Source: Nanobdellota archaeon
GTDB taxonomy: Archaea; Nanobdellota; Nanobdellia; Pacearchaeales; GW2011-AR1
Assembly (NCBI GenBank): GCA_038045105.1
Contig: JBBSYU010000025.1
Location: forward strand, 1 to 32,158
Direction: 5' to 3'
DNA: 32,158 nt
How positions within the stretch are numbered: the first letter of the stretch is position 1; the number at the start of each line of letters is the position of its first letter. Position numbers and translations under genes: made by a program. Positions 921 through 16,002 of this stretch are shown here, piece by piece. The notes beneath the pieces were generated by a model. The model was not told the origin of the DNA and searched no databases. It worked only from the letters and a program-made list of their open reading frames with translations.

Positions 921-2597
921 ATGAAAAAACAATTACTAATTTTATTTATTGTAATTTTTATTCTTGGCGCTGTTAATACATTAAATGCTCAAACATGGCC
1001 TGCATTTAATGTTTGCTGTGAAAAAACCCTGAGTGGTGCATGGTGTCAGAACACCTTGAAAGGAAACTGCGCAACTTCTATTGATTTAATTACAAAAGCT
1101 CCACTTAGAGAAACTCCAACAAGCTGTGATGCAACAAGTTTTTGCAAACTTGGATGCTGCATTGATTCTGCAGAAGGATTATGCATGGAGAATACTCCTT
1201 TGAAAGTCTGCCAGATATCAACAGGAACCTGGGTTGATGATGCTAAATGCAATGTTGCTCAATGCAGGCTTGGATGTTGTATTCTTGGTGATCAGGCTAG
1301 TTTTGTTACACTAACAAGATGCAAAAGATTATCTTCATTATATGGATTAAATACTAATTTCAGAAGAGACATATCATCAGAATCAAGCTGTGTTGCGCTT
1401 GCATTTAGCCAGGATAAAGGAGCATGTGTTTATGAAATTGAAAATCAGAAAACCTGCAGATTCACAACAAGAGGAGATTGCCTGAATTCAGAGAAAGCAG
1501 AAAAAGCAGAAAACTTAACTTCCAAGCCTGAATTTTTTAAGGATTATTTATGTTCTGCTGATGAATTAGGAACTAATTGCGGGCCTACAACAGATACTAT
1601 CTGCCTTCCTGGAAGAGATGAAGTTTATTTTAAAGATAGTTGTGGAAATCCTGCTAATATTTATGATGCAGGCAAGATTTATTCAAAAAACCCTGGTTAC
1701 TGGAAAAAAATTGTTTTAAAAACAAACAGCTGTAATTATAAATCAAAAGATGGAAGCAAAAATTCAAAGACTTGCGGAAACTGCAATTATCTTGATGGAA
1801 GCATTTGTGGAAAAGGTTCTGCTGCTTATGGAAATTATGTTTGCAAAGATGTTAATTGTTATAATACTGAAAATGGAAAAGATTATAAAAATGGAGAAAG
1901 CTGGTGCATTTATATGTCTGACACTGGAAATGGAAAAGATGATGTTGGAAGCAGGCATTTCAGGCATGTGTGCATTAGCGGGGAAGAGACAATAGAACCT
2001 TGTGCTGATTTTAGAAATGAAGTATGTTATGAACAACCTGTAAAAATTGATAATGGAAACTTTATAGAGGCTGGATGCAGAGTAAACAGATGGGCTGATT
2101 GCATTGACCAGAATACTGAAAAAAAATGCCTTAACACAGACAAAAGAGAGTGTTACTGGTATCCTGGATTTTCATATGATGGAGCAGGAAAGAAAAATAA
2201 AACAGCAACTAATTCTTTGCTTCAGGGCACTAATCAAAAACAAGGAACAGGAATTGTAAATGGAACAGGAATCTGCCTTCCAAATTATCCTCCTGGATTG
2301 AAATTCTGGGAATCAGGTGATGCAGGAGGTGTCTGCAGTTTAGGAAATTCAATACAGATTGTTGAGTATAGCACAAATATATTTGGCTCAAAAACATGCA
2401 AAAACAATTGCGATGTTTTAGAATCTGCATGGGCAAACAGGATGAATGAAATATGCACAAGCCTTGGTGATTGTGGAGCAAAATCAAATTTTGTTGGAGT
2501 TTATACTGATGATGGAATAGAATGGAAAGATAATGGAAATTTAAAAACTTTAGGGGGAGCTATAATTGGAGGTATTGGAGAAAGTGCAAGAGAATAA
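921..2597 (+). CDS. Secreted cysteine-rich protein (unknown family)
   Basis: The ORF track gives 879-2597. I prefer ATG 921 because GGAGG sits at 905-909 and the signal peptide MKKQLLILFIVIFILGAVNTLNA follows. About 43 Cys by my count, with a duplicated C[KR]LGCCI motif. No further TM segment. Confidence 0.8.
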   Translation: MKKQLLILFIVIFILGAVNTLNAQTWPAFNVCCEKTLSGAWCQNTLKGNCATSIDLITKAPLRETPTSCDATSFCKLGCCIDSAEGLCMENTPLKVCQISTGTWVDDAKCNVAQCRLGCCILGDQASFVTLTRCKRLSSLYGLNTNFRRDISSESSCVALAFSQDKGACVYEIENQKTCRFTTRGDCLNSEKAEKAENLTSKPEFFKDYLCSADELGTNCGPTTDTICLPGRDEVYFKDSCGNPANIYDAGKIYSKNPGYWKKIVLKTNSCNYKSKDGSKNSKTCGNCNYLDGSICGKGSAAYGNYVCKDVNCYNTENGKDYKNGESWCIYMSDTGNGKDDVGSRHFRHVCISGEETIEPCADFRNEVCYEQPVKIDNGNFIEAGCRVNRWADCIDQNTEKKCLNTDKRECYWYPGFSYDGAGKKNKTATNSLLQGTNQKQGTGIVNGTGICLPNYPPGLKFWESGDAGGVCSLGNSIQIVEYSTNIFGSKTCKNNCDVLESAWANRMNEICTSLGDCGAKSNFVGVYTDDGIEWKDNGNLKTLGGAIIGGIGESARE

Positions 2598-2640
2598 TAT
2601 GAAAAAAATGGATAATAAAAATATTGGCAATGTAAAAAGA

Positions 2641-2680
2641 GGTATTTGTAATACAAAACTTTTTAAAAAAGTTTTAACAC
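2641..2680. repeat. Palindromic module P, copy 1 (GGTATTTGTAATAC-AAAACTTTTTAAAAAAGTTTT-AACAC)
   Basis: Nearly identical to 9160-9197 and 15199-15237. The core AAAACTTTTT/AAAAAGTTTT is a 10-bp palindrome. Confidence 0.8.
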
Positions 2681-2682
2681 AT

Positions 2683-2737
2683 CAGAAAATCTATGAGATT
2701 TTCTGTGCCCAAAAATTCTTATGAAAGAATTTTTTGG
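2683..2737. repeat. Twin stem-loop insert
   Basis: Hairpin 1 is CAGAAAATC-TATGA-GATTTTCTG (2683-2705). Hairpin 2 is CCAAAAATTCTT-ATGA-AAGAATTTTTTGG (2709-2737). The segment is absent from the otherwise collinear copy at 15180-15300. Confidence 0.7.
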
Positions 2738-2829
2738 AAATCGGGATTTATCCTGACATGATATAAAACTGATGAGTTATGCAGATGAGATGATTAAAAG
2801 AGAATGAGAAACAAAACTATTAAAATAAA

Positions 2830-5076
2830 ATGAAAAAACAAAATAAAACCAGCCCTTTTAAAAAAAGTTCTGGGGTAAAACAAATTGAAAAAAATAAATT
2901 GAAAACATATTTCTTAATTGTAAATTTAATTTTATCAATTGTTGCGTTCAGTTGTTTGATTAATATTTCTTTTGTGAATGCTCAGACACCTACAACTCCA
3001 ACTACACCTAATCCTACTCAGCCACCAAGCCTTACTAATCCTCCTCAAGTAATACAGACTCCTCCTTCAGGAACTCCAACTCCTGGAACAGGCGGAATTC
3101 CTGGTGCAACTCCTCCTGGAAATCAACAAATTTCTAATCAAGGTGGAGGGGTTGCTGTGATTGGTGGAGGGCCTCCTGGATTAGAAGGCCCTGGTGTAAC
3201 AGGTGGAGATGGAGGTACTGGTGGAGGTGGTGGAACAGGTGGAGGTACTGGTGGAGGCACTGGAGGCATTATAACAGGAGGGGGAGCAGGCACTATTTTA
3301 AGTTTTAATATGCAATCAATAATACAAAAAGCTGGTTTTGGTTCAATGATTTTTGGAACAATAGGAACTCTTGCAGGAGGAGATAATGGTGCATATTGGG
3401 GAGCATTAGCAGGAACAATTGGAGGAATTGTTGCTGGATTAACAGAACAGTCATTAGGACAAAGAGGCTCAATATTATTAGGATTAGGTGTTGCAGCAGC
3501 AATATTTTTATTAACATTTGCAAAAAAATCAAAAGAAATAGTTGAATTCAATTGCCTGCCTTGGCAAGCGCCTATTGGTGGTGAAAATTGTGAATTATGC
3601 AATGATTATAAAGAATGCTCTGACTATACCTGCAAGAGTTTGGGACAGGCATGTGAAATAATAAATAAAGGAACAAAAGAGCAGAAATGCATCTGGAAAA
3701 ATCCTCATGATGTTAATTCTCCTATTATTAAATTTTTAAGAGCAAGTAAAGAGCATAAATCTGCGCCTGATTCTGCAATAAGACCTCCTGATACAGGAGT
3801 AAGAATAACTAATGATAAAGGAAACTGCATAAAAGCATTTACACCTCTTGAATTTGAATTTGCAACAGATGAGCCTGCTCAATGCAAGATAGATTATAAT
3901 TTAACGAGAAATAAAGATGGATTTGAACAAATGCCATTTTATGTTGGAGGTGATAATTTGTTTAGTTATAATCATACTGAAAAAATGGCTCTTCCAGGGC
4001 CTGATGCTGTAAATGCTGCTGCACCTGAATTAAAAAATAACGGAGAATATATATTATATATAAGATGCAGAGATGCAAATGGAAATATAAATGAAAATTC
4101 ATTTTCAGTAAGCTTTTGCGTTGACAAAGGGCCTGACACAACTCCTCCTGTGATTGAAAGCGTGAGCATTCCAAGTGAAAAACCTCTGCAATTCAATCAG
4201 ACAAGTTTATATTTGGAGGTTTATGTGAATGAGCCTTCTGAATGCAGATGGAGCAAAGAAGACAGGGCATATAAAAATATGGAGAAAAATATGAGTTGTA
4301 ATACAAATGTCTGGGAAATGAACAGCAATCTTGTTTACACATGCAGGACAGATTTAACAGGAATTGAAAGCAGAAAAGAAAATTTATTTTATTTCAGATG
4401 CAAGGACAAGCCATGGGCACAAGAAGCAGACAGAAATGAAAACAAGCAGAGTTATTCATATAAAGTTATTGGAACCCAGCCATTAAATATAATGAATTCA
4501 GGACCTAAAGGAAAAATATCAGGCGCAACAGACACTATTCCTGTTTTCCTGAATATAGACACTGATAATGGATATAAAAACGGGAATGCTCTTTGCTATT
4601 ATTATATTGGAAAACCTGCAAAAGATGAGGATTATATATTATTCTTAGAAACAGAAGGAAACAATCACACGCAAAGGCAAGACCTTGTTCCTGGAAATTA
4701 TATTTATTATTTCAAGTGTGTTGATTTAGGGGGTAATGCTGCTTATAATACAACTTCCTTTAGTGTTGAAAGTGACAGGTCTTCTCCAGTTGTTGTGAGA
4801 GCATATAAGGAAAGCGGTGAATTAAAAATAATAACAAATGAGCAGTCTGAATGCAGTTATTCAACAAAAGACTGCAATTTTGAGATTGAATCTGGAATAG
4901 AAATGAATACGCAGGATAATCTTGCTCATAATTCAGAGTGGATTGTTAATACAAATCTTTTCATAAGATGCAAAGATAAGTATAATAATCAGCCAAATCC
5001 AAATACCTGCTCAATAGTTCTAAGGCCTACAAAAATAGATTCCAAGAAAGAAGTGATTGAGTTTGCAAGTTATTAG
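2830..5076 (+). CDS. Large surface protein: N-terminal hydrophobic anchor/signal, Pro/Thr-rich and Gly-rich low-complexity region, Gly-zipper-like hydrophobic helices, four tandem Cys-containing ~90-110-aa repeats
   Basis: 748-aa ORF. Features are TYFLIVNLILSIVAFSCLINISFVNA, TPTTPTTPNPTQPP, GGTGGGGGTGGGTGGGTGG, and hydrophobic GTIGTLAGG...GLGVAAAIFLLTFA. The repeats share xxEC[KRS]... and Y-x-[LF]-[YF]-[IF]-[RK]-C-[RKV]-D. Confidence 0.85.
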   Translation: MKKQNKTSPFKKSSGVKQIEKNKLKTYFLIVNLILSIVAFSCLINISFVNAQTPTTPTTPNPTQPPSLTNPPQVIQTPPSGTPTPGTGGIPGATPPGNQQISNQGGGVAVIGGGPPGLEGPGVTGGDGGTGGGGGTGGGTGGGTGGIITGGGAGTILSFNMQSIIQKAGFGSMIFGTIGTLAGGDNGAYWGALAGTIGGIVAGLTEQSLGQRGSILLGLGVAAAIFLLTFAKKSKEIVEFNCLPWQAPIGGENCELCNDYKECSDYTCKSLGQACEIINKGTKEQKCIWKNPHDVNSPIIKFLRASKEHKSAPDSAIRPPDTGVRITNDKGNCIKAFTPLEFEFATDEPAQCKIDYNLTRNKDGFEQMPFYVGGDNLFSYNHTEKMALPGPDAVNAAAPELKNNGEYILYIRCRDANGNINENSFSVSFCVDKGPDTTPPVIESVSIPSEKPLQFNQTSLYLEVYVNEPSECRWSKEDRAYKNMEKNMSCNTNVWEMNSNLVYTCRTDLTGIESRKENLFYFRCKDKPWAQEADRNENKQSYSYKVIGTQPLNIMNSGPKGKISGATDTIPVFLNIDTDNGYKNGNALCYYYIGKPAKDEDYILFLETEGNNHTQRQDLVPGNYIYYFKCVDLGGNAAYNTTSFSVESDRSSPVVVRAYKESGELKIITNEQSECSYSTKDCNFEIESGIEMNTQDNLAHNSEWIVNTNLFIRCKDKYNNQPNPNTCSIVLRPTKIDSKKEVIEFASY

Positions 5077-5345: not shown

Positions 5346-6143
5346 ATGATACTTACAAATAAACTAAGAAAAACTGGATTTGCCTTAGCAGGCTTAGCAG
5401 GCTTAGTTGGAGGAATGAATTATTCTGGAGAGGGATATGCTCAACAGCAAAATAAACCCGGAGTAAGAGTTTCTGATGGCGCTGATTATGTAATAAGAGC
5501 AGATTACAGAGACAGGGAACATGAATGGAGTTTATATAAAGAACAAGTTAAAAATCCTAGAAAACCCTCTGCAACAGGCAGAACAGATAATGGAAATACT
5601 CAGATAAGCAATCTAAATGAGGATAGAGTTTATGGTATTGGAGGACAAACTGAAAATGATTCAGAGCCTAGATTATCGAGAAATTTTATATTAGAGGATT
5701 TTGCAAAAGCCTATGGAATATCAAAATGGAAAATGTGCTTAACTGAAAGTGAAAGACAAAAAACAGCAGAATTATTTAATAGGCTGGATTTAAATGGGAG
5801 AAAGACTTTATGCAATGTATATGCTAATACTCCGGGTTTTTATGAGGCTAGTTTTTCAGCTGAAGGCAAAAAATCATTTGAAAAATTAAATCAGGCTTAT
5901 CAAAATCTTGTTACAGCAAAGAAAGCAAATGCTTCTCAGGAATTATTTAATAGTGAATTAGAAGGAGCAGTTAGAAAACTTTATCCTTGGATAAGATTTG
6001 ATAATGGAAGGCCTTTGAATGTTCCTGACAGGATGCTTGTATTATGGGTTGCTGACAGCCTGGAAAAGAAATCTGGAAAAAGATTAATTAATTGGGATAA
6101 TGTTGCAAAATACAGTTCAATGCCTGTTCAAGAGAGATTTTGA
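5346..6143 (+). CDS. Secreted/hypothetical protein
   Basis: 265-aa ORF with an N-terminal hydrophobic segment TGFALAGLAGLVGGM. No family recognised. Confidence 0.7.
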   Translation: MILTNKLRKTGFALAGLAGLVGGMNYSGEGYAQQQNKPGVRVSDGADYVIRADYRDREHEWSLYKEQVKNPRKPSATGRTDNGNTQISNLNEDRVYGIGGQTENDSEPRLSRNFILEDFAKAYGISKWKMCLTESERQKTAELFNRLDLNGRKTLCNVYANTPGFYEASFSAEGKKSFEKLNQAYQNLVTAKKANASQELFNSELEGAVRKLYPWIRFDNGRPLNVPDRMLVLWVADSLEKKSGKRLINWDNVAKYSSMPVQERF

Positions 6144-6443: not shown

Positions 6444-7181
6444 ATGGAAAAGAGGTTAAATAGGTATGGGCAGGTTTCTGGATTTGTCATATTTGCTATT
6501 TTAATTGCGGGAATTATTTTAATATTTTTTTTATTTAGAACTGGAAGTTTTCAGAATATTAAAGTTAATCCTGTTGCTCTTCCTGTTTATAATTATGTTG
6601 ATGCTTGTGTTAAAGAAACAGGAAAAACCAGTCTTTATGATATTGGGCAGTCTGGAGGATATTTCATAAACCCTGAGATTTCACTGAATAGTATTGCTGT
6701 TTATTTTGACAGGGGAGATAATTATATTCCTTCAAAAGAAAAAATACAGGAAGAGCTTGCTCTTTATATGAATAATATACTGTTTTTTTGCGTGAAAGGG
6801 TTTAGTAATTTTCCTGATTTTGATGTTTCACAGGATGAAATAAAAACAAGTGCAAAAATTGAAAATAACAGAGTTGTTTTTGATATTGTTTATCCTATAA
6901 GTGTGACAAAAAATGGAAAAACTTATGCTTTTGAAAAGTTTAGTGCAGAAGTTCCTGTGAGACTGGGCATGATTTATAATGTCTCTGAAAAAATAATACA
7001 AGAGCAGATGAAGAACCTAAAAGATATCTGCCTGACTTGCTTAAGCAGGATTGCTTTTGAAAATGACTTATTCATAGACATGGCTGATTATGAAAATGAT
7101 TCTGTCTTATTTGTTATCAGTGATGAAAACTCTAAAATAAATGGAAAGGAGTATAAATTTTATTTTATAAATAAATATTAA
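6444..7181 (+). CDS. Class III (type IV pilin-like) signal-peptide protein
   Basis: 245 aa. The N-terminus is MEKRLNRYG/QVSGFVIFAILIAGIILIFFLF (basic, G-Q, ~20 hydrophobic residues). 4 Cys in the mature part. The gene ends 9 nt before the next gene. Confidence 0.65.
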   Translation: MEKRLNRYGQVSGFVIFAILIAGIILIFFLFRTGSFQNIKVNPVALPVYNYVDACVKETGKTSLYDIGQSGGYFINPEISLNSIAVYFDRGDNYIPSKEKIQEELALYMNNILFFCVKGFSNFPDFDVSQDEIKTSAKIENNRVVFDIVYPISVTKNGKTYAFEKFSAEVPVRLGMIYNVSEKIIQEQMKNLKDICLTCLSRIAFENDLFIDMADYENDSVLFVISDENSKINGKEYKFYFINKY

Positions 7182-7190: not shown

Positions 7191-9146
7191 ATGAAAATCA
7201 TAATTGTTTTTGTTATAGCGATGATTCTTGCTAGTTTTATCTGTTCTGCTGCAAATTTTGCAACAACAGATATTGATACTCTTCCAGTTAGCCAGAGCGC
7301 AACAAATACTGCTGCAAGTTCTGCTGCAAGCCAGAAAGAATATTCAGCAACAGTTACAGATGAAAAAGATATTGGAACAAATATTGGCTTGGAAACAGGA
7401 AAAATTAAAGTAAAAGGAATTAAAGTTGAAAAGCCTGCTGGAAAAAGCACAACTTTATCATTTATTGACAAAAATAGTTATGTTGAATTAATAGATTCAA
7501 AAGGAAACTGGAGAAGATTTTTTGGCTTGGATAAATTAAAAGTTAAAGTTAATGGAGCTGAAAAAGAATATGCACCTAAAATAGTAGTTGATGGAAATGG
7601 GCAGATTGAAGAGGCTTATTTTACTTCAACAGAAGGGGGCAAGTATGCTTTTGGAGACAGTGAAGTTGATGTTCCAAAAGGAGGAGGCGTGATATATCAA
7701 AAAAATAAAGGAAAAGGTGAATTGCAGTTATCAGTTCCTGCTAATACAAAAATTACTGCACCTAAAATATTTGATGATAAATCAAATGTCAAGCTGGCAA
7801 AGGTTTCATACATAAGCTGGGATAATAGTTTTTTAGAATTGGAAAATGGAATGAAAATACAGGGTGCGAGTGTTCATTATATTGATGGAAAACTTGCTTT
7901 TTCAGGAAAAAATATAAATTTTAATGGCTTGGTTATAAGGGATGCAAGTGCAGAAAAAATAAGTTATTTAGATTTCACAGGAAAAAATCTTGATGTTCCT
8001 GGCCCATACATTTCAATGAATCTTAATGAAAAAATAATTTTTATTGGAACAAATACAAATCAGGATTCTCATTCTTTAATGTTTCAGAAAGGAAATCTAT
8101 ATGGCTTGACTTTTGATGCTGATACAGACCACATGGCTGTGAGAGTTTTGGGTGATGAAAAAACAAAGTCTTATTTTTCTATTACAGACAAAGACAGGAC
8201 AGATAAGGGATTTGTTCCATTAGGGAAGATAGTTGGAAATGTTGCTGTAAATGTTGATGATGGAGGTGTTGGAACTTATTTGAAAAATAATGAAATTTAT
8301 AAATCACAGGTTGGAAGAGTTATTAGTGATTTTTCTGATATTCCTGGAAAAACAACAATTCCTGTTGAATTATCTTTTTATAAATTAAATCAAAAAGGCG
8401 AGGAAGTTCCTGTTAGCTTGAAAAGAGTAATAATAAATGGAAAAGAAAGTGTTGCAGAGGAAAGGGTTGTTTTAAGCAACAGGAATGAGCTTGGGATTGG
8501 TGCTAATCCTACTTGGATTGCAGGAAGTTTGTATTCTAGAAATTATCCTGTATTAACAAGAGGTGTTTCAAACAGGGTTGCTTATAATTATGTTCAGTTT
8601 ACTCCTGAAGGAGTGTCTAAGTTTACAGGAGTAAGAATAATTCCGGATAGTTATTCCAGAAATGTTTTAAAACAAGATGATTACAGAATGTTATTGGATT
8701 GGCTGAATTCTCTTTCTCCTTTTGCAAGAAAAAGAGTAGGAGAAATTTATCTTCATGAAAGAGCTACAATGGGGGGATATGAGGCATTAGCATGGGGAGG
8801 GCCTGGAGGAATAGAAATAGGTGTTGGTTCTGGAGCATTCACTCCTGGGATTATTACTCATGAAGCAACACATGCTGTAAATATTGACAATAATAATTTT
8901 TGGAGTGCTTGGACAAGTGTTGGTGGGAAAAGTGATTCCGAAGACCCTTCTGAATTTGCAGAATATGCATTTAAAGATATAAGAGGAAATTTACAAAGCA
9001 GCAAATCATTCAGAGGAAAAATGGCTGTTCTTGTTCAGCAGGGAGTTATAAGCCAGTATGTATTTGACCAGCAGCTTTTAAGAGCAGGATTAGAAACAGG
9101 AACACAGGCTACTGAAAGATATATTAGGGAGGCAAGAGGAAGTTAA
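7191..9146 (+). CDS. Large secreted protein with C-terminal HExxH motif (candidate zinc metallopeptidase)
   Basis: 651 aa with signal peptide MKIIIVFVIAMILASFICSAANFA. The body is beta-rich. HEATH lies at nt 8859-8873 within GIITHEATHAVNIDNN. Confidence 0.8.
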   Translation: MKIIIVFVIAMILASFICSAANFATTDIDTLPVSQSATNTAASSAASQKEYSATVTDEKDIGTNIGLETGKIKVKGIKVEKPAGKSTTLSFIDKNSYVELIDSKGNWRRFFGLDKLKVKVNGAEKEYAPKIVVDGNGQIEEAYFTSTEGGKYAFGDSEVDVPKGGGVIYQKNKGKGELQLSVPANTKITAPKIFDDKSNVKLAKVSYISWDNSFLELENGMKIQGASVHYIDGKLAFSGKNINFNGLVIRDASAEKISYLDFTGKNLDVPGPYISMNLNEKIIFIGTNTNQDSHSLMFQKGNLYGLTFDADTDHMAVRVLGDEKTKSYFSITDKDRTDKGFVPLGKIVGNVAVNVDDGGVGTYLKNNEIYKSQVGRVISDFSDIPGKTTIPVELSFYKLNQKGEEVPVSLKRVIINGKESVAEERVVLSNRNELGIGANPTWIAGSLYSRNYPVLTRGVSNRVAYNYVQFTPEGVSKFTGVRIIPDSYSRNVLKQDDYRMLLDWLNSLSPFARKRVGEIYLHERATMGGYEALAWGGPGGIEIGVGSGAFTPGIITHEATHAVNIDNNNFWSAWTSVGGKSDSEDPSEFAEYAFKDIRGNLQSSKSFRGKMAVLVQQGVISQYVFDQQLLRAGLETGTQATERYIREARGS

Positions 9147-9333: not shown

Positions 9334-10032
9334 ATGATAAACAAATCAATAAAAAACAAAATTTTATTCATGGGAATTTTACTATTGACAAATATATTAA
9401 TGACGAATATAATCAGTGCCAGTCCTTTTTATTATAAAATTTCCATGGATTATAATAAAGATGTGATTGATATTAAAGAGATTGGAGTTATATTTTCACA
9501 AGAAGATTTAACAAATGGTTATGGAAGTTATAATATTGAAACTATTGATGCAAATAATAAAAAAATAGATTCTCAAAACTTTGTTGTGCCAAATACAAGA
9601 TTTTATGATAAAGGTGAGAATGGGAATATTAGTGAGGGAGGAAGTGTTGTTCTTGAAAATGTTTCTTTTATTGTTTATGCTCCTTATTATGCAAATGCAA
9701 AAGAGATAATTATTTATGATAAAACAAATAAAGAATTAACAAAAGCTGATGTAAGCATGTATTCCAGGATAACAGAAAAAGAAAATGTGATTAACAATGT
9801 TGGGGGAGACAAGGATGAGTATGGATGCTTGATTGCTGCTGGTTATTCATGGTGCGAAGAAAAGCAAAATTGCATAAGAACATGGGAAGAGACATGTTCT
9901 TCTGCAAAAAAAACTGAAAAAACCTCTGGTAATAACTTGTTGGAAAACATTTCTAATTATTGGTGGGTTTTGATTATAATATTAATAATCCTTATTATAA
10001 TACTTGCATATGCTATGAAAAAGAAAAGATGA
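9334..10032 (+). CDS. Exported protein with C-terminal TM anchor (candidate sorting-signal protein)
   Basis: 232 aa with N-terminal signal ILFMGILLLTNILMTNIISA. A 4-Cys motif GCLIAAGYSWCEEKQNCIRTWEETC is present. The C-terminus is NYWWVLIIILIILIIILAYAMKKKR. Confidence 0.8.
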   Translation: MINKSIKNKILFMGILLLTNILMTNIISASPFYYKISMDYNKDVIDIKEIGVIFSQEDLTNGYGSYNIETIDANNKKIDSQNFVVPNTRFYDKGENGNISEGGSVVLENVSFIVYAPYYANAKEIIIYDKTNKELTKADVSMYSRITEKENVINNVGGDKDEYGCLIAAGYSWCEEKQNCIRTWEETCSSAKKTEKTSGNNLLENISNYWWVLIIILIILIIILAYAMKKKR

Positions 10033-10096: not shown

Positions 10097-10333
10097 ATGG
10101 AAAAACAAATAATAGATTTTAATGTATTGATAGGACAAGATGAAGATGGAATTTATGTAGCAAGAGTTCCAGAAATAGAAGGATGTTACACACAAGGCAA
10201 AACTTTGCAGGAAGTATTGGAAAGAATAAAAGAAGCAATTGAAGTATGTTTAGAAGCTGACAAAGAAGAGGTAAATCCTATGAGGTTTGTTGGAATACAA
10301 AGAGTTCAAGTTGAAAGGCCTCAAATGGCTTAA
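10097..10333 (+). CDS. hicB: HicB-family antitoxin (UPF0150-like)
   Basis: 78 aa. GIYVARVPEIEGCYTQGKTLQEVLERIKEAIEVCLE is the typical HicB N-terminal domain pattern. Confidence 0.7.
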   Translation: MEKQIIDFNVLIGQDEDGIYVARVPEIEGCYTQGKTLQEVLERIKEAIEVCLEADKEEVNPMRFVGIQRVQVERPQMA

Positions 10334-10425: not shown

Positions 10426-12375
10426 ATGAATCAGATGAAAAAGAGCATTAGTTTTTGGCATGGGTTTGCAGTGATATTTATATTCTTATTTTTAATTGGA
10501 TTTGCTTATGCAGAGGATGTAGGAACAGGCAGGATTATTATTGATAAAGATAAAATTGTAAAAATCAAGGGCAATGATTATAATGTAAATGCAGGAAGCT
10601 TGTTTATAATCAAAAATGATGAACTTGCAGAGGGAACTAGCTTTGTTGCAGGAAAAAATGGAGGAATTTTCAGATTAAAAGGAGTTAATGTCAAACTTCC
10701 TGAAAATACAAAAGTTTTATTTAAAGATGGAAAAATAAAAATAGAACTTCCTGATGGAGTAAAATTAGATACTCTGAATGTAAAAGAGTTGGAAAAAGCA
10801 AAAGGAGTTAAATTTGAATTTGTTTCAAAAGATAAGGGATTTAATCTTCCAAGCGGAGATTTATTCAAAGGAATTTTGAATTATGATATTGATAAAAATG
10901 GAATAGGAAATCTTTATTTTTCTGATAAAGAAGCTGTTTTAGATGGTTTAAAAGTAAAAAATCCAAAACAAGAAAGAATAGACTTGGATTTAAAAGGAGA
11001 GGTTTCAAAATCTTATTCTGGAAATTATATTTCTATTGACAGCAGGAATTCTAAATTAGTTATTGGAAAAAATAGCAATGGCGCTGGAGTTAGGGTTGAA
11101 AAACAAGGTGAAAATGTTGTTTTTAGGGCTGGAAAAGATGATGGCAAAGATGCTGGGGATAAAGCTGGAAAAGGGACAATAGTTATTGAAAATAGTAAAG
11201 TCAAGACTTATGGTGATTACAGGATTGATAATGGTGAATTATCTGTAGAAACAGGGATTAATAAAAAAGGAGAAAAAACACTTATTATGCCTAGTGATGT
11301 TAATAAAAATGGGAAAAAATCTTCTCGAATGGAAATTGCAAGTTATGATAATGATGGAAAGCTTTTATTAAAATCAGGCAAGAAAGTAGTTATTAATGAA
11401 AATAATGGATTAGAAGTTTATTCTATTAATAATGCTGTTCAGGATGCAAGCGAAGAAAAACCAAGAGTGACATTTAATACCCAGGAAAGCCCTCAAACTG
11501 CGCAAGTTCAAAATAGTGAATCTAATAATCCTGCTAGCGGGCTTAAACTTGGAATTCTTTCTCCCGTTAATAGAGGTTATAATCCATCTAATTCTGTTTA
11601 TGAAGATATTCTTGGGCATAGCCAGACTGTAACAATTTATGGGACAGATAAGGGCGGGCAGGCTACAACTTTGCATGAAAATGAACATGGTGCAAATGCA
11701 GAGGCAACAATAAAAGCTATTAGGGATTTAAGTGCTTCTGGAAATCCAGATAAATGGAATTTAGATTATGTTTCTGGATATTATCTTGGAAATAATCAGT
11801 ATGCAGTATTATTAGAGCCTGGATTAGACAGAAAACAAATATATAAAAACTATGTTCCTAATGAATTAATCAATAAGGGTTATACTACAAATTATTTTAC
11901 AGATGATGACGGCATTAAAAAAGGGCTTCAAAGAGCTGAAAATTCTAATTATATTCATGATGAATGGATGGCAGGTATTAAAGAATTTGAAGGAAGCATG
12001 CAACTCATAGACAGAAATCAGTGGACAAGCGGAGTTGCAAGCAGAGGACAGCAAGGAATCGGTGTTATGGATACTGGAGAACTTGCTGCATTTACCACAA
12101 ATTCGCTTGCTGTTGCAACAGCAGTAAGAGAGCAAAATCCAAATTATTGGAATAATCATCCAGAATACAGAAGTTTTGTTGCTGTAAATTTAATAAAATC
12201 AAAGCAGTTATATGATGCTGCAACAAGTTCAAAATATAATGGATATTTTCTGAATAATCATAATAATTATTTTCAGACACTTAGAACAGGCAGCAATCCT
12301 GCTATAGAAAAAATGAGAGAAACAGCAAGACAAGTTTTAGGCAGTGATGCTTCAAAAAGAGTTCTTGGATTTTGA
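10426..12375 (+). CDS. Large secreted protein with HExxH motif (candidate zinc metallopeptidase)
   Basis: 649 aa with signal FWHGFAVIFIFLFLIGFAYA. The N-terminal half is beta-rich. HENEH lies at nt 11674-11688 within TTLHENEHGANAE. Confidence 0.8.
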   Translation: MNQMKKSISFWHGFAVIFIFLFLIGFAYAEDVGTGRIIIDKDKIVKIKGNDYNVNAGSLFIIKNDELAEGTSFVAGKNGGIFRLKGVNVKLPENTKVLFKDGKIKIELPDGVKLDTLNVKELEKAKGVKFEFVSKDKGFNLPSGDLFKGILNYDIDKNGIGNLYFSDKEAVLDGLKVKNPKQERIDLDLKGEVSKSYSGNYISIDSRNSKLVIGKNSNGAGVRVEKQGENVVFRAGKDDGKDAGDKAGKGTIVIENSKVKTYGDYRIDNGELSVETGINKKGEKTLIMPSDVNKNGKKSSRMEIASYDNDGKLLLKSGKKVVINENNGLEVYSINNAVQDASEEKPRVTFNTQESPQTAQVQNSESNNPASGLKLGILSPVNRGYNPSNSVYEDILGHSQTVTIYGTDKGGQATTLHENEHGANAEATIKAIRDLSASGNPDKWNLDYVSGYYLGNNQYAVLLEPGLDRKQIYKNYVPNELINKGYTTNYFTDDDGIKKGLQRAENSNYIHDEWMAGIKEFEGSMQLIDRNQWTSGVASRGQQGIGVMDTGELAAFTTNSLAVATAVREQNPNYWNNHPEYRSFVAVNLIKSKQLYDAATSSKYNGYFLNNHNNYFQTLRTGSNPAIEKMRETARQVLGSDASKRVLGF

Positions 12376-12489: not shown

Positions 12490-13023
12490 ATGTCTATGAT
12501 AAAAAAGAGGGTTAGAAATAAAAAATCCCAAGAAGCTATTGGAATGTCATTTTCAATGATATTTTCAATTATCTTGATAATATTTTTTATTGCTGTTGCA
12601 TTCATGGCAATAAGATATTTTTTAAAAGTGCAAAACTGCGCAAGAGTTGGAGATTTTGTCAGTGAAGTAAAGATAAAGACTACAGAAGCATGGGATTCGC
12701 AAAAATCAGGTTTTGAAAAAAAATATATTCTTCCGTCTAATCTTGAGTATGTCTGCTTTGCAGATTTGTCACAGGAGCTTAGGGGGCAAAATGAAGCAGT
12801 ATTGGAGGACTTAGGATTTTTTCAGGAATGGGAAAAATCAAATATGCTTTTATATCCAAAAGGAAATTCATGCAATATGCCTGTGCATAATATAGAGCAT
12901 TTAGATATTGCAAAAATGACAAAAACAAAAAATCCTTATTGCATTGAAGTTAAAAGCGGGCAGATTACACTTAAATTTGAAAAAGGATATGTTGACAGAC
13001 TGGTTACTATTTCAGGTGTGTGA
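12490..13023 (+). CDS. Class III (type IV pilin-like) signal-peptide protein
   Basis: 177 aa with N-terminus MSMIKKRVRNKKS/QEAIGMSFSMIFSIILIIFFIAVAFMAI. 4 Cys in the mature part. Confidence 0.65.
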   Translation: MSMIKKRVRNKKSQEAIGMSFSMIFSIILIIFFIAVAFMAIRYFLKVQNCARVGDFVSEVKIKTTEAWDSQKSGFEKKYILPSNLEYVCFADLSQELRGQNEAVLEDLGFFQEWEKSNMLLYPKGNSCNMPVHNIEHLDIAKMTKTKNPYCIEVKSGQITLKFEKGYVDRLVTISGV

Positions 13024-13028: not shown

Positions 13029-13168
13029 ATATATTTGTAATAGAAAAACCTAAGAAGTTATGAAGATGAGATGATTAAATGAGATAAACAGAAATAAAAT
13101 TTGAGAATCAGAAGCTATAACAAATCAACAGATGTATCATATCTCAAATTACATACAATTCCAATAAA
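13029..13168 (+). repeat. MITE-like intergenic repeat, copy 7a
   Basis: ATATATTTGTAATAGAAAAACCTAAGAAGTTATGAAGATGAGATGATTAAATGAG...AGCTATAACAAATCAACAGATGTATCATATCTCAAATTACATACAATTCCAATAAAT. Confidence 0.85.
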
Positions 13169-13175: not shown

Positions 13176-13292
13176 AAATATCGGTAATGTAAAATAAATA
13201 AGTTTTGCAGATGAGATGATTAAAATATTAGTGAGGAGCAAAATTATGGAACAGATGATATAACTAATAAAAAACATACAATACTAAGGTAA
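13176..13292 (+). repeat. MITE-like intergenic repeat, copy 7b
   Basis: AAATATCGGTAATGTAAAATAAATAAGTTTTGCAGATGAGATGATTAAAAT...AACAGATGATATAACT...ACATACAATACTAAGG. Confidence 0.8.
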
Positions 13293-13451: not shown

Positions 13452-14396
13452 ATGCTAAAAAGAAGCAATAAAAAAGCAATTGAAATGGGTTTTAACTGGT
13501 TATTTGCAATAATAGCAGGAGGTTTTATACTTTTTATTGCTGTTTATTCTGCAAGCAAATTCATTGGAATTTCAGAGCAGAAATATGGGACAGAAAGTGC
13601 TGCAAAATTTGTATCTCTTTTTGACCCTCTTGAAATAGGACTTGTTGCTGGAAAATCCTCTGAAATTGATTTTGTGAAAAATACAAGAGTTTTTTTTGAT
13701 TGCGATGCAGATGTCAATGCTCCTTTTGGAAGGCAGACTATTTCTTTTTCAGAACAGATGTTTGGGAAAAAATGGAGTGAAAAAAGCAACAGGGTATCAA
13801 TAAAAAATAAGTATGTTTTTAGTGAAAATGTTGTTGAAGGCAAGAGATTCTATCTTTTTTCATTTCCTTTTTCAATGCCTTTTAGTATTGGAGATATTGT
13901 TATAACTGAATCTGGAAGTTATTGTTTTTATGATGCTCCTAATGAGATTGTTGATGATATTGAAGGGCTTAATATTAAAAATGTAATATTTCCTAATTTA
14001 ACAACCGAGTGTAATGGAATAAAAGTTTGTTTTGGAGGACATAGCAAATGTGATATTAAAGTATCAACTTCTGAAAGTTATGTTGAAAAAAACGGGAAAA
14101 AGATGTATTATTATGGAAATTTGATATATGGCGCTATTTTTTCTTCTCCTGAAAATTATGAATGCAATGTCAAGAGATTAATGAGCAAGCTAAATGAATT
14201 AGGCAAAATCTATATTAGCAAGATAAAAATAATGGAAAGAGAAGATTGTGAGCCAAAGATTGAGGCTAAATTAAGCATGGAAATGGGAATTGCTAAGAGC
14301 ATCACTTCTTCAAGAGATTTAATCAGGCTTGGAATTAGTTCAGAAGAAATTGATGAAATAAATGAGGCTGGAAAACCAGGATGCAAGCTGTATTAG
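13452..14396 (+). CDS. Class III (type IV pilin-like) signal-peptide protein
   Basis: 314 aa with N-terminus MLKRSNKKA/IEMGFNWLFAIIAGGFILFIAVYSA. 8 Cys in the mature part. Confidence 0.55.
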   Translation: MLKRSNKKAIEMGFNWLFAIIAGGFILFIAVYSASKFIGISEQKYGTESAAKFVSLFDPLEIGLVAGKSSEIDFVKNTRVFFDCDADVNAPFGRQTISFSEQMFGKKWSEKSNRVSIKNKYVFSENVVEGKRFYLFSFPFSMPFSIGDIVITESGSYCFYDAPNEIVDDIEGLNIKNVIFPNLTTECNGIKVCFGGHSKCDIKVSTSESYVEKNGKKMYYYGNLIYGAIFSSPENYECNVKRLMSKLNELGKIYISKIKIMEREDCEPKIEAKLSMEMGIAKSITSSRDLIRLGISSEEIDEINEAGKPGCKLY

Positions 14397-14418: not shown

Positions 14419-14548
14419 TATATTGGTAATATCAAAAAAACTGACAAGTTATGGGTGAGATGATTAAATTGAGTGAGAGTATAGCAAAAAACTGATAACT
14501 CGCTTAACAACTGACACCATAACTTTCAAATTATATGATACCAATACT
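14419..14548 (+). repeat. MITE-like intergenic repeat, copy 8
   Basis: TATATTGGTAATATCAAAAAAACTGACAAGTTATGGGTGAGATGATTAAATTGAG...CTGATAACTCGCTTAACAACTGACACCATAACTTTCAAATTATATGATACCAATAC. Confidence 0.85.
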
Positions 14549-14550
14549 AT

Positions 14551-14569
14551 GTTGGTAATCAATTCCAAC
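14551..14569. repeat. Terminus-only mini element (left and right termini fused: GTTGGTAATCAATTCCAAC)
   Basis: TTGGTAAT (left-terminus core) abuts AATTCCAA (right-terminus core) with no interior. It lies directly after copy 8. Confidence 0.45.
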
Positions 14570-14575
14570 AAGAAT

Positions 14576-15151
14576 ATGATAAATAAAATAACCAAAAAAT
14601 CAAAGAAAGGGCAATTAAATATACAGGAAATGGCATTTATGCTTGTGGCTGTTGTATTGTTTTTTGGACTTGTTACTTTGTTTGTGCTTACAATTGTGTA
14701 TAAAAACATGTATTCGCAGTTAAATATAATAAATCAGGAAAAAACACTTACCTCTCTGATAAATCTTGCTGATTCTCCTGAATTTCGGTGCGTTACTACA
14801 AAATCCAATTGTGTTGATGGTGATAAAGCTATTTCTCTGATGAACAGAACTGTTTATTCTAATTTTTGGGGGTTCAGCAGCCTGACAATAATAAAAATGA
14901 GTGGTTTTGCTAAAAATGAAAGCCAGTTGATAAAATGCAATATTGCTAATTATCCTGATTGTGATTTAATTGTTATTTATGATAAAAAGGTTAAAAATGA
15001 AAGGGCAATATCAAGTTATGTTGCTTTTTGCAGGAAAAAATATGAAAAAGTTGACACTTATACAGGCTATACATATGATAAATGCGAGATAGCTAAACTA
15101 GTGGCTGGCACAGAACTTAAAAACACGCCTGGAACAGCGCCTGCGAGATAA
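14576..15151 (+). CDS. Class III (type IV pilin-like) signal-peptide protein
   Basis: The ORF track starts at 14549, inside repeat sequence. I prefer ATG 14576, giving MINKITKKSKKG/QLNIQEMAFMLVAVVLFFGLVTLFVLTIV. 6 Cys in the mature part. Confidence 0.7.
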   Translation: MINKITKKSKKGQLNIQEMAFMLVAVVLFFGLVTLFVLTIVYKNMYSQLNIINQEKTLTSLINLADSPEFRCVTTKSNCVDGDKAISLMNRTVYSNFWGFSSLTIIKMSGFAKNESQLIKCNIANYPDCDLIVIYDKKVKNERAISSYVAFCRKKYEKVDTYTGYTYDKCEIAKLVAGTELKNTPGTAPAR

Positions 15152-15179
15152 AATGATAAAAATAAAAAATCAAAAAATA

Positions 15180-15375
15180 AATATTGATAATGAAAAGAGG
15201 TATTAGTAATACAAAACTTTTTAAAAAAGTTTTAACAAAATCAGGATTTATCCTGACATGATATAAAACTGATGAGTTATGCAGAGGAGAGATTAAACTA
15301 GTGAAAGTAGATTAAAAGACTGATAAACACTTAATCAACAAATGACATAACTGCTAAATAATTAACATTACCAAC
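15180..15375 (+). repeat. MITE-like intergenic repeat, copy 9 (composite; uninterrupted paralogue of copy 2)
   Basis: AATATTGATAATGAAAAGA is followed by module P, then ATCAGGATTTATCCTGACATGATATAAAACTGATGAGTTATGCAGAGGAGAGATTAAA...CTGATAAACACTTAATCAACAAATGACATAACTGCTAAATAATTAACATTACCAAC. Confidence 0.8.
15199..15237. repeat. Palindromic module P, copy 3
   Basis: GGTATTAGTAATACAAAACTTTTTAAAAAAGTTTTAACA. It differs from copy 1 at about 2 positions. Confidence 0.85.
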
Positions 15376-15391
15376 AGCCCTTTTGGAAAAT

Positions 15392-15412
15392 CCAGAAAAT
15401 GAAATTTTCTGG
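15392..15412. repeat. CAGAAAAT hairpin module, copy 2 (CCAGAAAAT-GAA-ATTTTCTGG)
   Basis: 9-bp perfect stem. The same stem sequence occurs at 2683-2705 and 27144-27165 with a different loop each time. Confidence 0.7.
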
Positions 15413-15432
15413 CTCTTCAAAACTAAAAGTTT

Positions 15433-16002
15433 ATGAAGAAGTCCTGGGGTAAAAAAATAATAAACATGATACCAAAATCAAAAAAATCGCAGCACGAGGC
15501 ACTGGGATTTGTGCTTATAGTTGCTATTGTAACTATAATAATTGTTATTTTTCTTTCATTATCTGCTGGAAAAGGCAATGTAATGAGGCAGAATAGTGTT
15601 GAAATATCTAATTTACTTCAGGCTTCTATTTATTATACTTCAGAATGCGCTATTAATTTTGTTCCACAATATCAGGAAGTGCAGGATTTAATATCTGCAT
15701 GCTATAAAAATCCAGAGCAAAAATGCTTGAATGGAACAGATGTCTGCCAGGCTTTAAATGAAACAATAAAAAAGGTTATAGAACAAAGCCTGAGAATCAG
15801 CCCTGATTCACCTAATAAAGCCTATAAATTAAATATATATTATAGTCCTTTGAATAATATCCAAAATAAAGAGATAATATTGTTGTCTGAAAAGGGTGTT
15901 TTTGACAAGTGCAAGTCAAGGCCAGGTGGAAGTTATTCATTACCTGCTGGAACATTCAGTTCTTCAACAATAAACATAGAATTAGAAGTTTGTGTTGGAT
16001 GA
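15433..16002 (+). CDS. Class III (type IV pilin-like) signal-peptide protein
   Basis: 189 aa (alternative start ATG 15466). The N-terminus is ...MIPKSKKS/QHEALGFVLIVAIVTIIIVIFLSL. 6 Cys in the mature part. Confidence 0.65.
   Translation: MKKSWGKKIINMIPKSKKSQHEALGFVLIVAIVTIIIVIFLSLSAGKGNVMRQNSVEISNLLQASIYYTSECAINFVPQYQEVQDLISACYKNPEQKCLNGTDVCQALNETIKKVIEQSLRISPDSPNKAYKLNIYYSPLNNIQNKEIILLSEKGVFDKCKSRPGGSYSLPAGTFSSSTINIELEVCVG

What the first reader, a model, noticed from the sequence alone, without database searches (positions are those of the whole stretch)
921..16002. 15-kb co-directional island of 11 exported proteins, five with class III (pilin-like) signal peptides and no assembly machinery
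Every protein gene from 921 to 16002 except hicB starts with a signal peptide or N-terminal anchor, and all are on the + strand. Most are separated by repeat copies, giving a cassette-like layout.

Five genes carry the archaeal class III pattern (basic residues, then G/S/A, then Q/I, then ~20 hydrophobic residues):
- RYG|QVSGFVIFAILIAGIILIF (6444)
- KKS|QEAIGMSFSMIFSIILIIF (12490)
- KKA|IEMGFNWLFAIIAGGFILF (13452)
- KKG|QLNIQEMAFMLVAVVLFFG (14576)
- KKS|QHEALGFVLIVAIVTIII (15433)

Their mature domains look unrelated to each other by eye. Each has an even number of Cys (4, 4, 8, 6 and 6 by my count), consistent with disulfide-stabilised extracellular domains.

No pilus ATPase (PilB/FlaI-like), platform protein (PilC/FlaJ-like) or prepilin peptidase (PibD/FlaK/EppA-like) is in the window. 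The pilin-like genes are interleaved with a ~43-Cys secreted protein, a four-repeat surface protein and two ~650-aa HExxH proteins.

For an episymbiotic small-genome archaeon this is a plausible host-attachment or host-attack surface toolkit. As an ensemble it does not match a described operon type that I recognise.
Basis: partly seen in the sequence, partly recalled or inferred. Interest (0 to 1): 0.7.

Follow-up and report, generated by a model that had tools for sequence, protein, structure and literature searches.

The report
Conserved pilin-like surface gene cluster, Pacearchaeota
This stretch is not a variable island but part of a cell-envelope gene cluster shared by Pacearchaeota (tiny, uncultured, probably host-attached archaea); it encodes five previously unclassified pilin-like proteins plus large adhesin-like partners, which are good candidates for the filaments these cells are thought to use to hold on to hosts.

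Summary
Observation confirmed. Eleven exported proteins lie co-directionally at 921-16002, and the Cys counts are right. Five carry a class III-type N-terminus.

The motif holds up in orthologues from 80 species genomes. [KR][GAS]|Q directly precedes the hydrophobic helix in 82-95% of members of four families, and [KR][AG]|I in the fifth. Two neighbouring N-anchored families show no such pattern. The sites match Methanococcus Epd pilins (KGQV/KGQL/KGQI, cut by EppA) and Sulfolobus Ups pilins (KAIS/KGIS).

The "island" reading is wrong. H177-I314-J200-K189, then a regulator, the S-layer gene, two anchored proteins, pacearchaeosortase and its PACE-CTERM substrate, is syntenic across Pacearchaeota.

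A558 (43 Cys) and B748 (glycine-zipper hairpin plus four beta-sandwich domains) occur fused into one protein in paralogous modules. D245-type pilin-like genes are paired with large secreted partners, including the HExxH protein.

No Pfam, NCBIfam or PDB relative exists for any of the five.

Missing ATPase, platform and peptidase genes in 32 kb is normal for archaeal pilin genes. Whether Pacearchaeota encode them could not be checked.

The "cassette" repeats are a window-wide intergenic repeat family inserted into an otherwise compact operon.

Verdict: new variant of a known kind, moderate interest.

The parts
921..2597 (+). A558: Sec-secreted protein with 43 Cys, the 'head' half of an A+B surface protein
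   Evidence: Signal peptide and 43 Cys. No Pfam, NCBIfam or PDB hit. Orthologues share the CCEKTxxGAWCQ start. Aligns to residues 65-527 of a 1181-aa fused paralogue in L091 (E 3e-80).
2830..5076 (+). B748: membrane-anchored stalk protein, made of an N-terminal TM, a disordered Pro/Thr/Gly linker, a glycine-zipper helical hairpin, a Cys-rich knot and about four beta-sandwich domains
   Evidence: AlphaFold pLDDT 76, about 90 in the ectodomain. Foldseek hits to Ig/Fn3/cadherin arrays at E 1e-12 to 1e-8. 643 homologues at 50-80% identity. Aligns to residues 613-1181 of the L091 fusion (E 1e-62).
5346..6143 (+). C265: member of a lipoprotein-like family that sits between A and B in relatives; the lipobox Cys is missing in the window copy
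   Evidence: N-termini of relatives carry L-[AT]-G-C. The window copy reads LVGGM.
6444..7181 (+). D245: class III (pilin-like) protein, 4 conserved Cys, paired with the following large secreted protein
   Evidence: Family motif [KR][GAS]|Q[IV][ST]xF in 26 of 30 members. 9-nt gap to E651. The same D+E pair, overlapping, stands alone in another genome.
7191..9146 (+). E651: Sec-secreted ~650-aa protein with a C-terminal HExxH motif (putative zincin), partner of D245
   Evidence: HExxH invariant in 10 homologues. HEFAH in the L093 homologue. No Pfam or PDB hit.
9334..10032 (+). F232: exported protein with a signal peptide and a C-terminal TM anchor; follows E651 in relatives
10097..10333 (+). 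hicB antitoxin gene, an insertion and not part of the system
   Evidence: Pfam HicB_lk_antitox 2e-8. Absent at this position in relatives.
10426..12375 (+). G649: Sec-secreted ~650-aa protein with HExxH, weakly similar to the N-terminal half of E651; found only in close relatives
   Evidence: BLAST E 0.011 to E651; HExxH kept in 2 of 2 sequences.
12490..13023 (+). H177: class III pilin-like protein, first gene of the conserved H-I-J-K operon
   Evidence: [KR][GAS]|Q then GMSFxxIFSIIL in 69 of 73 orthologues. 4 Cys, two invariant and two in about 77% of orthologues. N-terminal ~100 residues homologous to I314.
13452..14396 (+). I314: class III pilin-like protein, the largest of the four, with 8 invariant Cys
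   Evidence: [KR][AG]|I then xMxFNWIFA in 47 of 51. 344 homologues. 1620 cluster representatives at 50% identity. AlphaFold pLDDT 85: helix 16-55, a beta-sheet, then a C-terminal helical domain. No PDB fold match.
14549..15151 (+). J200: class III pilin-like protein with a near-invariant QLKIQEMAFML N-terminus (start may be 14576)
   Evidence: 69 of 76 with [KR][GAS]|Q. 6 Cys conserved in 80-100% of orthologues.
15433..16002 (+). K189: class III pilin-like protein; Q, E, G and F are invariant in Q-x-E-I-x-G-F
   Evidence: 60 of 73 with [KR][GAS]|Q. 6 Cys conserved in 89-99% of orthologues.
17794..18189 (-). HVO_A0114-family wHTH regulator, a conserved neighbour
   Evidence: Pfam PF25212 4e-15. 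Follows K189 in 55 of 80 loci.
18602..21226 (+). S-layer protein (S_layer_C), a conserved neighbour
   Evidence: Pfam PF05124 1e-7. Syntenic in 49 of 80 loci.
21861..23479 (+). T193 and U282: two N-terminally anchored 4-Cys proteins that always follow the S-layer gene; no class III motif, so used as internal controls
23669..26467 (.). Pacearchaeosortase (23669-24235, +) and its PACE-CTERM putative S-layer protein (24743-26467, -), the end of the conserved envelope supercluster
   Evidence: NCBIfam NF033505 at 1e-56 and NF033506 at 3e-111. Synteny.

Best explanation
The region is the upstream half of a conserved cell-envelope supercluster of Pacearchaeota (DPANN archaea).

**What it encodes**
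- Five lineage-specific families of type IV pilin-like proteins.
- These are D245 and the four-gene operon H177-I314-J200-K189.
- It also encodes their large extracellular partners.

**Proposed mechanism**
1. Each pilin-like precursor is inserted by Sec (inferred).
2. A prepilin peptidase encoded elsewhere cuts after [KR][GAS] (inferred). The invariant +1 Gln suggests an EppA-like enzyme for four of them.
3. The new hydrophobic N-terminal helix is used for assembly (inferred). A type IV filament ATPase and platform encoded elsewhere would build a short filament or pseudopilus through the S-layer.
4. H, I, J and K behave like a set of four distinct minor or tip pilins (inferred, by analogy).
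5. D-type subunits are genetically coupled to cargo (shown), and may tether or present it (inferred). One cargo is the A558+B748 pair: a Cys-rich head on a glycine-zipper-anchored stalk of beta-sandwich domains, which is one polypeptide in paralogous modules. The other is the secreted HExxH protein E651.
6. The likely role is surface attachment, to a host or other surface, and envelope organisation.

**Shown**: the motifs and their conservation, the synteny, the fusion, the predicted folds.

**Inferred**: cleavage, filament assembly, function.
For: - **Taxon**: pacearchaeosortase at 1e-56 and PACE-CTERM protein at 3e-111. The source is a Hainich groundwater MAG.
- **Motif**: [KR][GAS]|Q immediately before the hydrophobic core in 69/73 H, 69/76 J, 60/73 K and 26/30 D-type proteins. 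[KR][AG]|I in 47/51 I.
- **Controls**: T193 and U282 match at 25-36% with no preferred residue.
- **Known sites**: they equal experimentally defined ones, EpdA-E RAQI/KGQV/KGQL/KGQI with EppA needing +1 Gln, and UpsA/B KAIS/KGIS (PMC4371748).
- **Shared N-terminal domain**: I-H 95%, H-K 78%, H-J 72% by hhalign, as is usual for pilins.
- **I314 model**: 40-residue N-terminal helix, then a beta-sheet, pLDDT 85.
- **Disulfides**: most Cys positions are kept in over 90% of orthologues, and all 8 of I314 are invariant.
- **Synteny**: HIJK in order in 60 of 80 loci and IJK in 71. Most of the 80 loci are cut short by contig ends, so these are lower bounds. Median intergenic gaps are 13, 1 and 1 nt.
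- **A+B fusion**. B748 is a tandem beta-sandwich adhesion-molecule architecture.
- **D+E pair**: overlapping genes, kept together in an unrelated context.
- **Literature**: archaeal T4P loci typically add Ig-fold S-layer-like proteins and adhesins. Pilin genes commonly lie away from the ATPase (PMC4858521; 2026 TFF preprint). Epd-type System 1 is reported in DPANN. Pacearchaeota are enriched in the host-attached size fraction. The same study imaged pili-bearing ultrasmall cells in groundwater, identified only as likely CPR or DPANN by size (PMC7906910).
Against: - No curated class III or pilin model recognises any of the five, neither Pfam nor NCBIfam, even when the N-termini are scanned alone at E up to 10.
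- No PDB sequence or fold relative was found.
- No T2SSE-type Walker A and no GxGD peptidase motif occurs within 10 kb of the cluster in any of the 82 loci then in hand. I could not establish that Pacearchaeota encode this machinery at all.
- None of the five looks like a typical major pilin, which is short, duplicated and fast-evolving. All five are single-copy and well conserved.
- The acidic residue sits at +2, +3 or +6, not at the +5 of Epd pilins.
- The window's D245 has Tyr at -2.
- Cleavage was predicted by rule only. SignalP and FlaFind were not available.
Confidence: 0.55

Rival explanations
1. The five proteins are uncleaved, N-terminally anchored (type II) membrane proteins of the space under the S-layer. 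They anchor, space or assemble the S-layer and the sortase-processed PACE-CTERM protein. No filament is formed.
For: - Invariable adjacency to the S-layer gene, its regulator and the sortase system.
- Single-copy, well-conserved genes.
- No TFF genes nearby in the 82 loci then in hand.
- No pilin model hits.
- ArlF (formerly FlaF) sets a precedent: a monotopic membrane protein of the archaellum that binds the S-layer protein (title and abstract of PMC4425475, listed).
Against: - A plain anchor has no reason to conserve [KR][GAS]|Q at the start of the helix. The true plain anchors next door, T193 and U282, do not.
- The N-terminal helices are more conserved than the ectodomains. That fits helix-helix packing or recognition by machinery.
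Confidence: 0.2
2. A type II secretion-like pseudopilus. H-I-J-K are the four minor pseudopilins (compare GspH-I-J-K). The D-type subunits couple specific secreted cargo (A+B, the HExxH protein) to a piston that pushes them through the S-layer.
For: - Four distinct pilin-like subunits in one operon, with one much larger and carrying an added helical domain. This recalls the size pattern of GspH/I/J/K (my own knowledge).
- D-type genes are translationally coupled to Sec-secreted partners in three module types.
Against: - No fold match to GspK or any pseudopilin.
- No ATPase or platform was found.
- To my knowledge no archaeal T2SS has been described (my own knowledge; not checked in the papers read).
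- The partners have their own Sec signals, and B748 is membrane-anchored.
Confidence: 0.1
3. One reading: a strain-variable genomic island of host-attachment or host-attack factors in cassette layout.
For: - E651, F232 and G649 occur only in closer relatives.
- Toxin-antitoxin genes (hicB, mazE/PIN, nucleotidyltransferase) are inserted.
- Repeats lie between the genes.
Against: - Base composition shows no step at either end of the region: the same G+C range and the same positive GC skew as the flanking + strand genes.
- The core genes are syntenic across the order.
- B748 is 50-80% identical across hundreds of homologues.
- The repeats are window-wide, on both strands.
Confidence: 0.08

Closest known systems
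Epd pili of Methanococcus maripaludis (archaeal TFF 'System 1' / Makarova clade 1): pilins EpdA-E processed by EppA
   Same: - Short basic leader ending in [KR][GA], followed by an obligatory +1 Gln (KGQV, KGQL, KGQI, RAQI) and a hydrophobic helix.
- Several different pilin-like genes in one operon.
- The major pilin and many other class III genes lie away from the machinery.
- System 1 is reported in some DPANN.
   Different: - No sequence or profile similarity to Epd pilins or to Pfam Class_IIIsignal/DUF361.
- The acidic residue is not at +5.
- Ser is frequent at -1.
- No EppA, ATPase or TadC genes in the locus.
- The ectodomains are larger and disulfide-rich.
PibD substrates of Sulfolobales (Ups and Aap pilins, bindosome sugar-binding proteins)
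   Same: - I314's K-A|I site resembles UpsA/UpsB KAIS/KGIS.
- Precedent for class III signals on large functional ectodomains that are not classical pilins.
   Different: - No homology.
- No ABC transporter or ATPase/platform genes nearby.
- Four of the five have +1 Gln. That residue is the hallmark of EppA substrates rather than of the known PibD substrates, although PibD is reported to be little selective at +1.
Bacterial core minor pilins / minor pseudopilins (FimU-PilV-PilW-PilX with PilY1; GspH-I-J-K)
   Same: From my own knowledge of these systems:
- A conserved operon of four different pilin-like subunits of unequal size.
- Encoded next to a large adhesin-like protein.
- Thought to form a priming or tip complex.
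   Different: - Analogy only.
- Foldseek found no significant match. The best pilin hit is the S. sanguinis PilB minor pilin at E 0.63.
- Archaeal-type cleavage motif, with no G|F-x-x-x-E.
Ig-fold 'S-layer-like' and adhesin accessory proteins of archaeal T4P and archaellum loci (e.g. arCOG05057)
   Same: B748 is a membrane-anchored array of beta-sandwich domains encoded beside pilin-like genes and near the S-layer gene.
   Different: - B748 carries a glycine-zipper hairpin anchor.
- It is the C-terminal half of a split or fused protein whose N-terminal half is a ~40-Cys domain.
- No sequence relation to those arCOGs was tested.

Membership tests
Archaeal class III signal peptide (type IV pilin-like) proteins | Short charged leader ending in [KRDE][GAS], immediately followed by a hydrophobic helix of about 20 residues | tested here: met
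   Present in all five window proteins. Conserved in 82-95% of orthologues against 25-36% unpatterned matches in control anchor families. The window's D245 has Tyr at -2.
Archaeal class III signal peptide (type IV pilin-like) proteins | Cleavage by an A24-family prepilin peptidase (PibD/FlaK/EppA) | not testable with these tools
   No peptidase gene in the window, which is a whole contig, nor in the 82 related loci then in hand. This needs the whole genome and N-terminal proteomics.
Archaeal class III signal peptide (type IV pilin-like) proteins | Pilin fold: a long N-terminal alpha-helix packed on a beta-sheet | tested here: inconclusive
   The I314 model has helix 16-55 followed by strands (pLDDT 85). 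There is no significant Foldseek match to any solved pilin.
Archaeal class III signal peptide (type IV pilin-like) proteins | Recognition by curated models (Pfam Class_IIIsignal and Pilin_N, NCBIfam archaeal pilin/archaellin N-terminal models) | tested here: not met
   No such hit for the full proteins or for isolated N-termini at E up to 10.
Archaeal class III signal peptide (type IV pilin-like) proteins | Assembly by a FlaI/PilB-type ATPase and a TadC/FlaJ platform | not tested
   None lie within 10 kb in the 82 loci then in hand. Linkage is not required, since pilin genes are often elsewhere (PMC4858521).
Epd-type (EppA-processed) pilins | Invariant +1 Gln | tested here: met
   Q at +1 in the H, J, K and D families. 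Not in I314, which has Ile.
Epd-type (EppA-processed) pilins | +5 Glu and DUF361-type N-terminal domain | tested here: not met
   Glu is at +6 (J, nearly invariant), +3 (K, invariant) or +2 (H and I, variable). No Pfam hit.
Zincin metallopeptidases (for E651 and G649) | HExxH motif plus a third zinc ligand in a recognisable zincin fold | tested here: inconclusive
   HExxH is invariant in 10 E651 homologues and in an 11th from another context. There is no Pfam or PDB match and no structure model.
Genomic island / mobile cassette array | Patchy distribution, atypical composition, mobility genes or cassette boundaries | tested here: not met
   Base composition shows no step at either end of the region. 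The core is syntenic in 60-71 of 80 species genomes. The repeats are window-wide.

The most novel reading that the evidence does not exclude
H-I-J-K is the archaeal counterpart of the four-subunit minor-pilin tip or priming complex. Together with the D-type subunits, it forms a short type II secretion-like pseudopilus that displays or exports the genetically coupled cargo through the S-layer. That cargo is the Cys-rich A+B adhesin and the HExxH protein. This would be a Pacearchaeota-wide host-contact organelle and the first secretion-type use of a type IV filament in archaea.
Probability: 0.12. Interest if true: 0.85.

Novelty: new variant of a known kind. Interest (0 to 1): 0.5.

Why it matters
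- **What these organisms are.** Pacearchaeota are abundant, uncultured, have among the smallest archaeal genomes, and are enriched in the host-attached size fraction of groundwater. Nothing is known of the molecules involved.
- **What the locus provides.** It ties 15-25 kb of a genome of roughly 1 Mb to a conserved set of surface proteins:
  - five new pilin-like families with a clear processing motif;
  - a split or fused Cys-rich / beta-sandwich surface protein;
  - pilin-cargo gene pairs.
- **Where it sits.** All of it lies beside the S-layer and sortase genes.
- **What it makes possible.** It gives named targets for proteomics, cryo-ET and metatranscriptomics of DPANN-host contacts. It also supplies profiles that current pilin predictors and Pfam miss.

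Tried and rejected
- **Family scans.** Pfam and NCBIfam scans of all cluster proteins and of isolated N-termini found nothing for the 11 exported proteins.
- **PDB sequence searches.** Profiles of H, J and K and the single sequences of E, G and A gave nothing.
- **Foldseek of the I314 model.** No significant match.
- **Extending the contig.** Exact-protein look-ups at both ends showed the window is the whole contig.
- **Looking for the machinery.** I searched for T2SSE Walker A and A24 GxGD motifs in all ORFs of the 82 related loci then in hand and found none.
- **Literature.** I looked for a statement that Pacearchaeota do or do not encode TFF ATPase, TadC or prepilin peptidase and found none.
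- **Mobile island.** Rejected on composition and synteny.
- **G649 as a sixth class III protein.** Its KKS|ISF start is not kept in its homologue, which has a plain Sec signal.
- **T193 and U282 as class III proteins.** The residue at -1 is Asn or Lys and the pattern is not conserved.

Full report
**Origin and observation**

The window (30% G+C) is an entire 32,158-bp contig of a groundwater MAG from the Hainich aquifer. Exact-protein look-ups at both ends find no longer contig. NCBI lists the 314-aa protein as AABX54_00740 of a "Nanoarchaeota archaeon".

A pacearchaeosortase (NF033505, 1e-56) and its PACE-CTERM protein (NF033506, 3e-111) place the organism in Pacearchaeota.

The Cys counts (43; 4, 4, 8, 6, 6) and the quoted N-termini are correct. 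Apart from HicB, none of the proteins between 921 and 16002 matches any Pfam or NCBIfam family at or near its curated cut-off.

**Are the class III signals real?**

No dedicated predictor was available, so I used conservation. A scan of one genome per species returned 127 relatives of the 314-aa protein, and 80 loci with 10-kb flanks were kept. I called ORFs in them and assigned them to the window's proteins by BLAST.

In orthologue alignments the leader varies in length and sequence, but the junction does not.

| Family | Motif at the junction | Members with it |
|---|---|---|
| H177 | [KR][GAS]-Q | 69 of 73 |
| J200 | [KR][GAS]-Q | 69 of 76 |
| K189 | [KR][GAS]-Q | 60 of 73 |
| D245-type | [KR][GAS]-Q | 26 of 30 |
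| I314 | [KR][AG]-I | 47 of 51 |
| T193, U282 (controls) | loose pattern, no preferred residue | 25-36% |

T193 and U282 are neighbouring families with ordinary N-terminal anchors.

These sites are the same as experimentally defined ones. M. maripaludis Epd pilins have RAQI, KGQV, KGQL and KGQI, and their peptidase EppA requires the +1 Gln. Sulfolobus UpsA/UpsB have KAIS and KGIS (PMC4371748).

Further points:
- The helices that follow are more conserved than the ectodomains, for example QLKIQEMAFML in J200 and Q-x-E-I-x-G-F in K189.
- Profile comparison links the N-terminal parts of the families: I-H 95% probability over ~100 columns, H-K 78%, H-J 72%.
- The AlphaFold model of I314 (pLDDT 85, pTM 0.80) has a 40-residue N-terminal helix, a beta-sheet and a C-terminal helical domain.
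- Most Cys positions are kept in over 90% of orthologues, and all 8 of I314 are invariant.

Against membership:
- No curated class III or pilin model fires, even on isolated N-termini.
- No PDB sequence or fold relative exists.
- The acidic residue is not at +5.
- The window's D245 has Tyr at -2.

**Not an island**

One gene order recurs across the 80 species genomes:

(B748-type) - D-type - A558 - lipoprotein-like - B748 - H177 - I314 - J200 - K189 - regulator (HVO_A0114 family, opposite strand) - S-layer protein - T193 - U282 - pacearchaeosortase - PACE-CTERM protein - Dph2 - SepF.

Counts over the 80 loci:

| Feature | Loci |
|---|---|
| H-I-J-K in order | 60 |
| I-J-K in order | 71 |
| Regulator within seven genes after K189 | 55 |
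| S-layer gene within seven genes after K189 | 49 |

Most of the 80 loci are cut short by contig ends, so these counts are lower bounds. The same order appears on contigs of 133-339 kb.

The I314 family has 1620 cluster representatives at 50% identity. B748 has 643 homologues at 50-80% identity. Base composition shows no step at either end of the region. E651, F232 and G649 are restricted to closer relatives.

**The partners**

The B748 model (pLDDT 76, about 90 in the ectodomain) has these parts in order:
1. an N-terminal TM helix;
2. a disordered Pro/Thr/Gly linker;
3. a helical glycine-zipper hairpin;
4. a Cys-rich knot;
5. about four beta-sandwich domains.

Foldseek matches only generic adhesion-molecule arrays: RPTP-delta Ig/Fn, cadherins and the GhpA grappling hook, at E 1e-12 to 1e-8.

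In paralogous modules one protein of 1,100-1,400 aa carries an A558-like N-terminal half (E 3e-80) and a B748-like C-terminal half (E 1e-62). A558 and B748 are therefore two parts of one surface protein.

On a 339-kb contig, D-type pilin-like genes precede each large partner:
- D + fused A·B;
- D + A + B;
- D + E651-like + F232-like.

A D + E pair with overlapping genes and an HEFAH motif also stands alone among housekeeping genes in another genome. HExxH is invariant in the E651 family.

**Missing machinery**

No ATPase, platform or peptidase gene is in the window. No T2SSE Walker A or GxGD motif is within 10 kb of the cluster in any of the 82 related loci then in hand. This is not unusual.
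- Most archaea keep pilin genes outside the T4P operons, including the Methanococcus major pilin (PMC4858521).
- Epd-type systems occur in some DPANN.
- Undinarchaeota encode VirB11, TadC and EppA.

I could not check Pacearchaeota themselves. This is the main gap, and it decides between the pilin model and the plain-anchor rival.

**The repeats**

The inter-gene repeats belong to a family found all over the window on both strands. ATATTGGTAATGTAAAA gives 18 hits against 0.66 expected, followed by ...GATGAGATGATTAA.

In relatives the H-I, I-J and J-K gaps have medians of 13, 1 and 1 nt. In the window they are 428, 152 and 281 nt. The repeats have invaded a compact operon. They do not delimit cassettes.

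**Verdict**

- The class III interpretation is supported by conservation, though not by any curated model.
- The "island without machinery" framing is not supported.
- The best reading is a conserved, lineage-specific variant of an archaeal type IV pilin-like surface system with coupled adhesin-like and HExxH partners, embedded in the envelope supercluster. My confidence in that reading is about 0.55.

It is a new variant of a known kind and of moderate interest.

Noticed in passing
window-wide, e.g. 75-91, 2621-2637, 5202-5218(-), 13031-13078, 13178-13223, 14420-14467, 21412-21758(-), 24560-24576(-), 27240-27286, 28243-28259(-), 31884-31900: Intergenic repeat family of about 50 nt. ATATTGGTAATGTAAAA is followed 10-20 nt later by AAGTTATGAAGATGAGATGATTAA. 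There are 18 core hits against 0.66 expected, on both strands, including a tandem 127-nt pair at 21505-21758. The repeats fill spacers that are near zero in related genomes.
   Followed up: partly
window 2642-2698, 9160-9216, 15200-15256: A second repeat directly after the stop codons of A558, E651 and J200. It holds a palindrome, AAAACTTTTT/AAAAAAGTTTT, so it may be a terminator-like or REP-like element.
   Followed up: no
window 683-917 (poly-G at 714-721): A run of 8 G splits a small ORF. MGWKDLPYWLKGG is in one frame, and a ~65-aa two-TM peptide ending in GKNKGGKK is in the next. The same G8 run is in an independent assembly (L001). It may be a frameshift or phase-variation site, or a pseudogene.
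   Followed up: partly
window 10335-10400: A 21-codon ORF (MTKLITISGKEMCKLFENYLY) just after hicB looks like the N-terminus of HicA. If so, the toxin half of the pair is truncated.
   Followed up: no
L091:3998-7543 (also L058:4985-9142, L089:959-4555, L055:5879-9388): Proteins of 1,100-1,400 aa that fuse an A558-like Cys-rich half to a B748-like half. The window has the split form only. A fused copy and its D-type gene may lie on another contig of this MAG.
   Followed up: yes
L093:10001-12723: A D-type class III gene overlapping a 659-aa HExxH (HEFAH) protein stands alone between a Fe-hydrogenase-like gene and FEN1/PolB. The two-gene module therefore moves as a unit.
   Followed up: partly
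window 9334-10032 (C-terminus) and 24743-26467(-) (C-terminus): F232 ends in ...NISNYWWVLIIILIILIIILAYAMKKKR. The PACE-CTERM protein ends in ...KNNWFIYLIVLVNLILIIAIIAVIRR.... The shared N-x-W plus TM plus basic tail suggests F232 may be a further pacearchaeosortase substrate.
   Followed up: no
window 192-581, 10097-10333, 16284-16861; L009:5267-6638: Toxin-antitoxin-type genes (nucleotidyltransferase, HicB, MazE/PIN; in relatives ParE and MNT/HEPN pairs) are repeatedly inserted at different points of this conserved surface cluster.
   Followed up: no
window 28303-28746 (-): The BLAST-defined homologues of this gene keep the same place in the synteny of several related loci. By eye it looks SepF-like, but NCBIfam found no family for it and it was not scanned with Pfam. 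It ends in a (DR)n repeat tail, RDRDRDRDRDRDRDRDRNRMNE.
   Followed up: no
window 5346-6143: C265 belongs to a family whose other members have a lipobox (L-[AT]-G-C). The window copy has Gly in place of the Cys, so it may no longer be lipid-anchored.
   Followed up: partly
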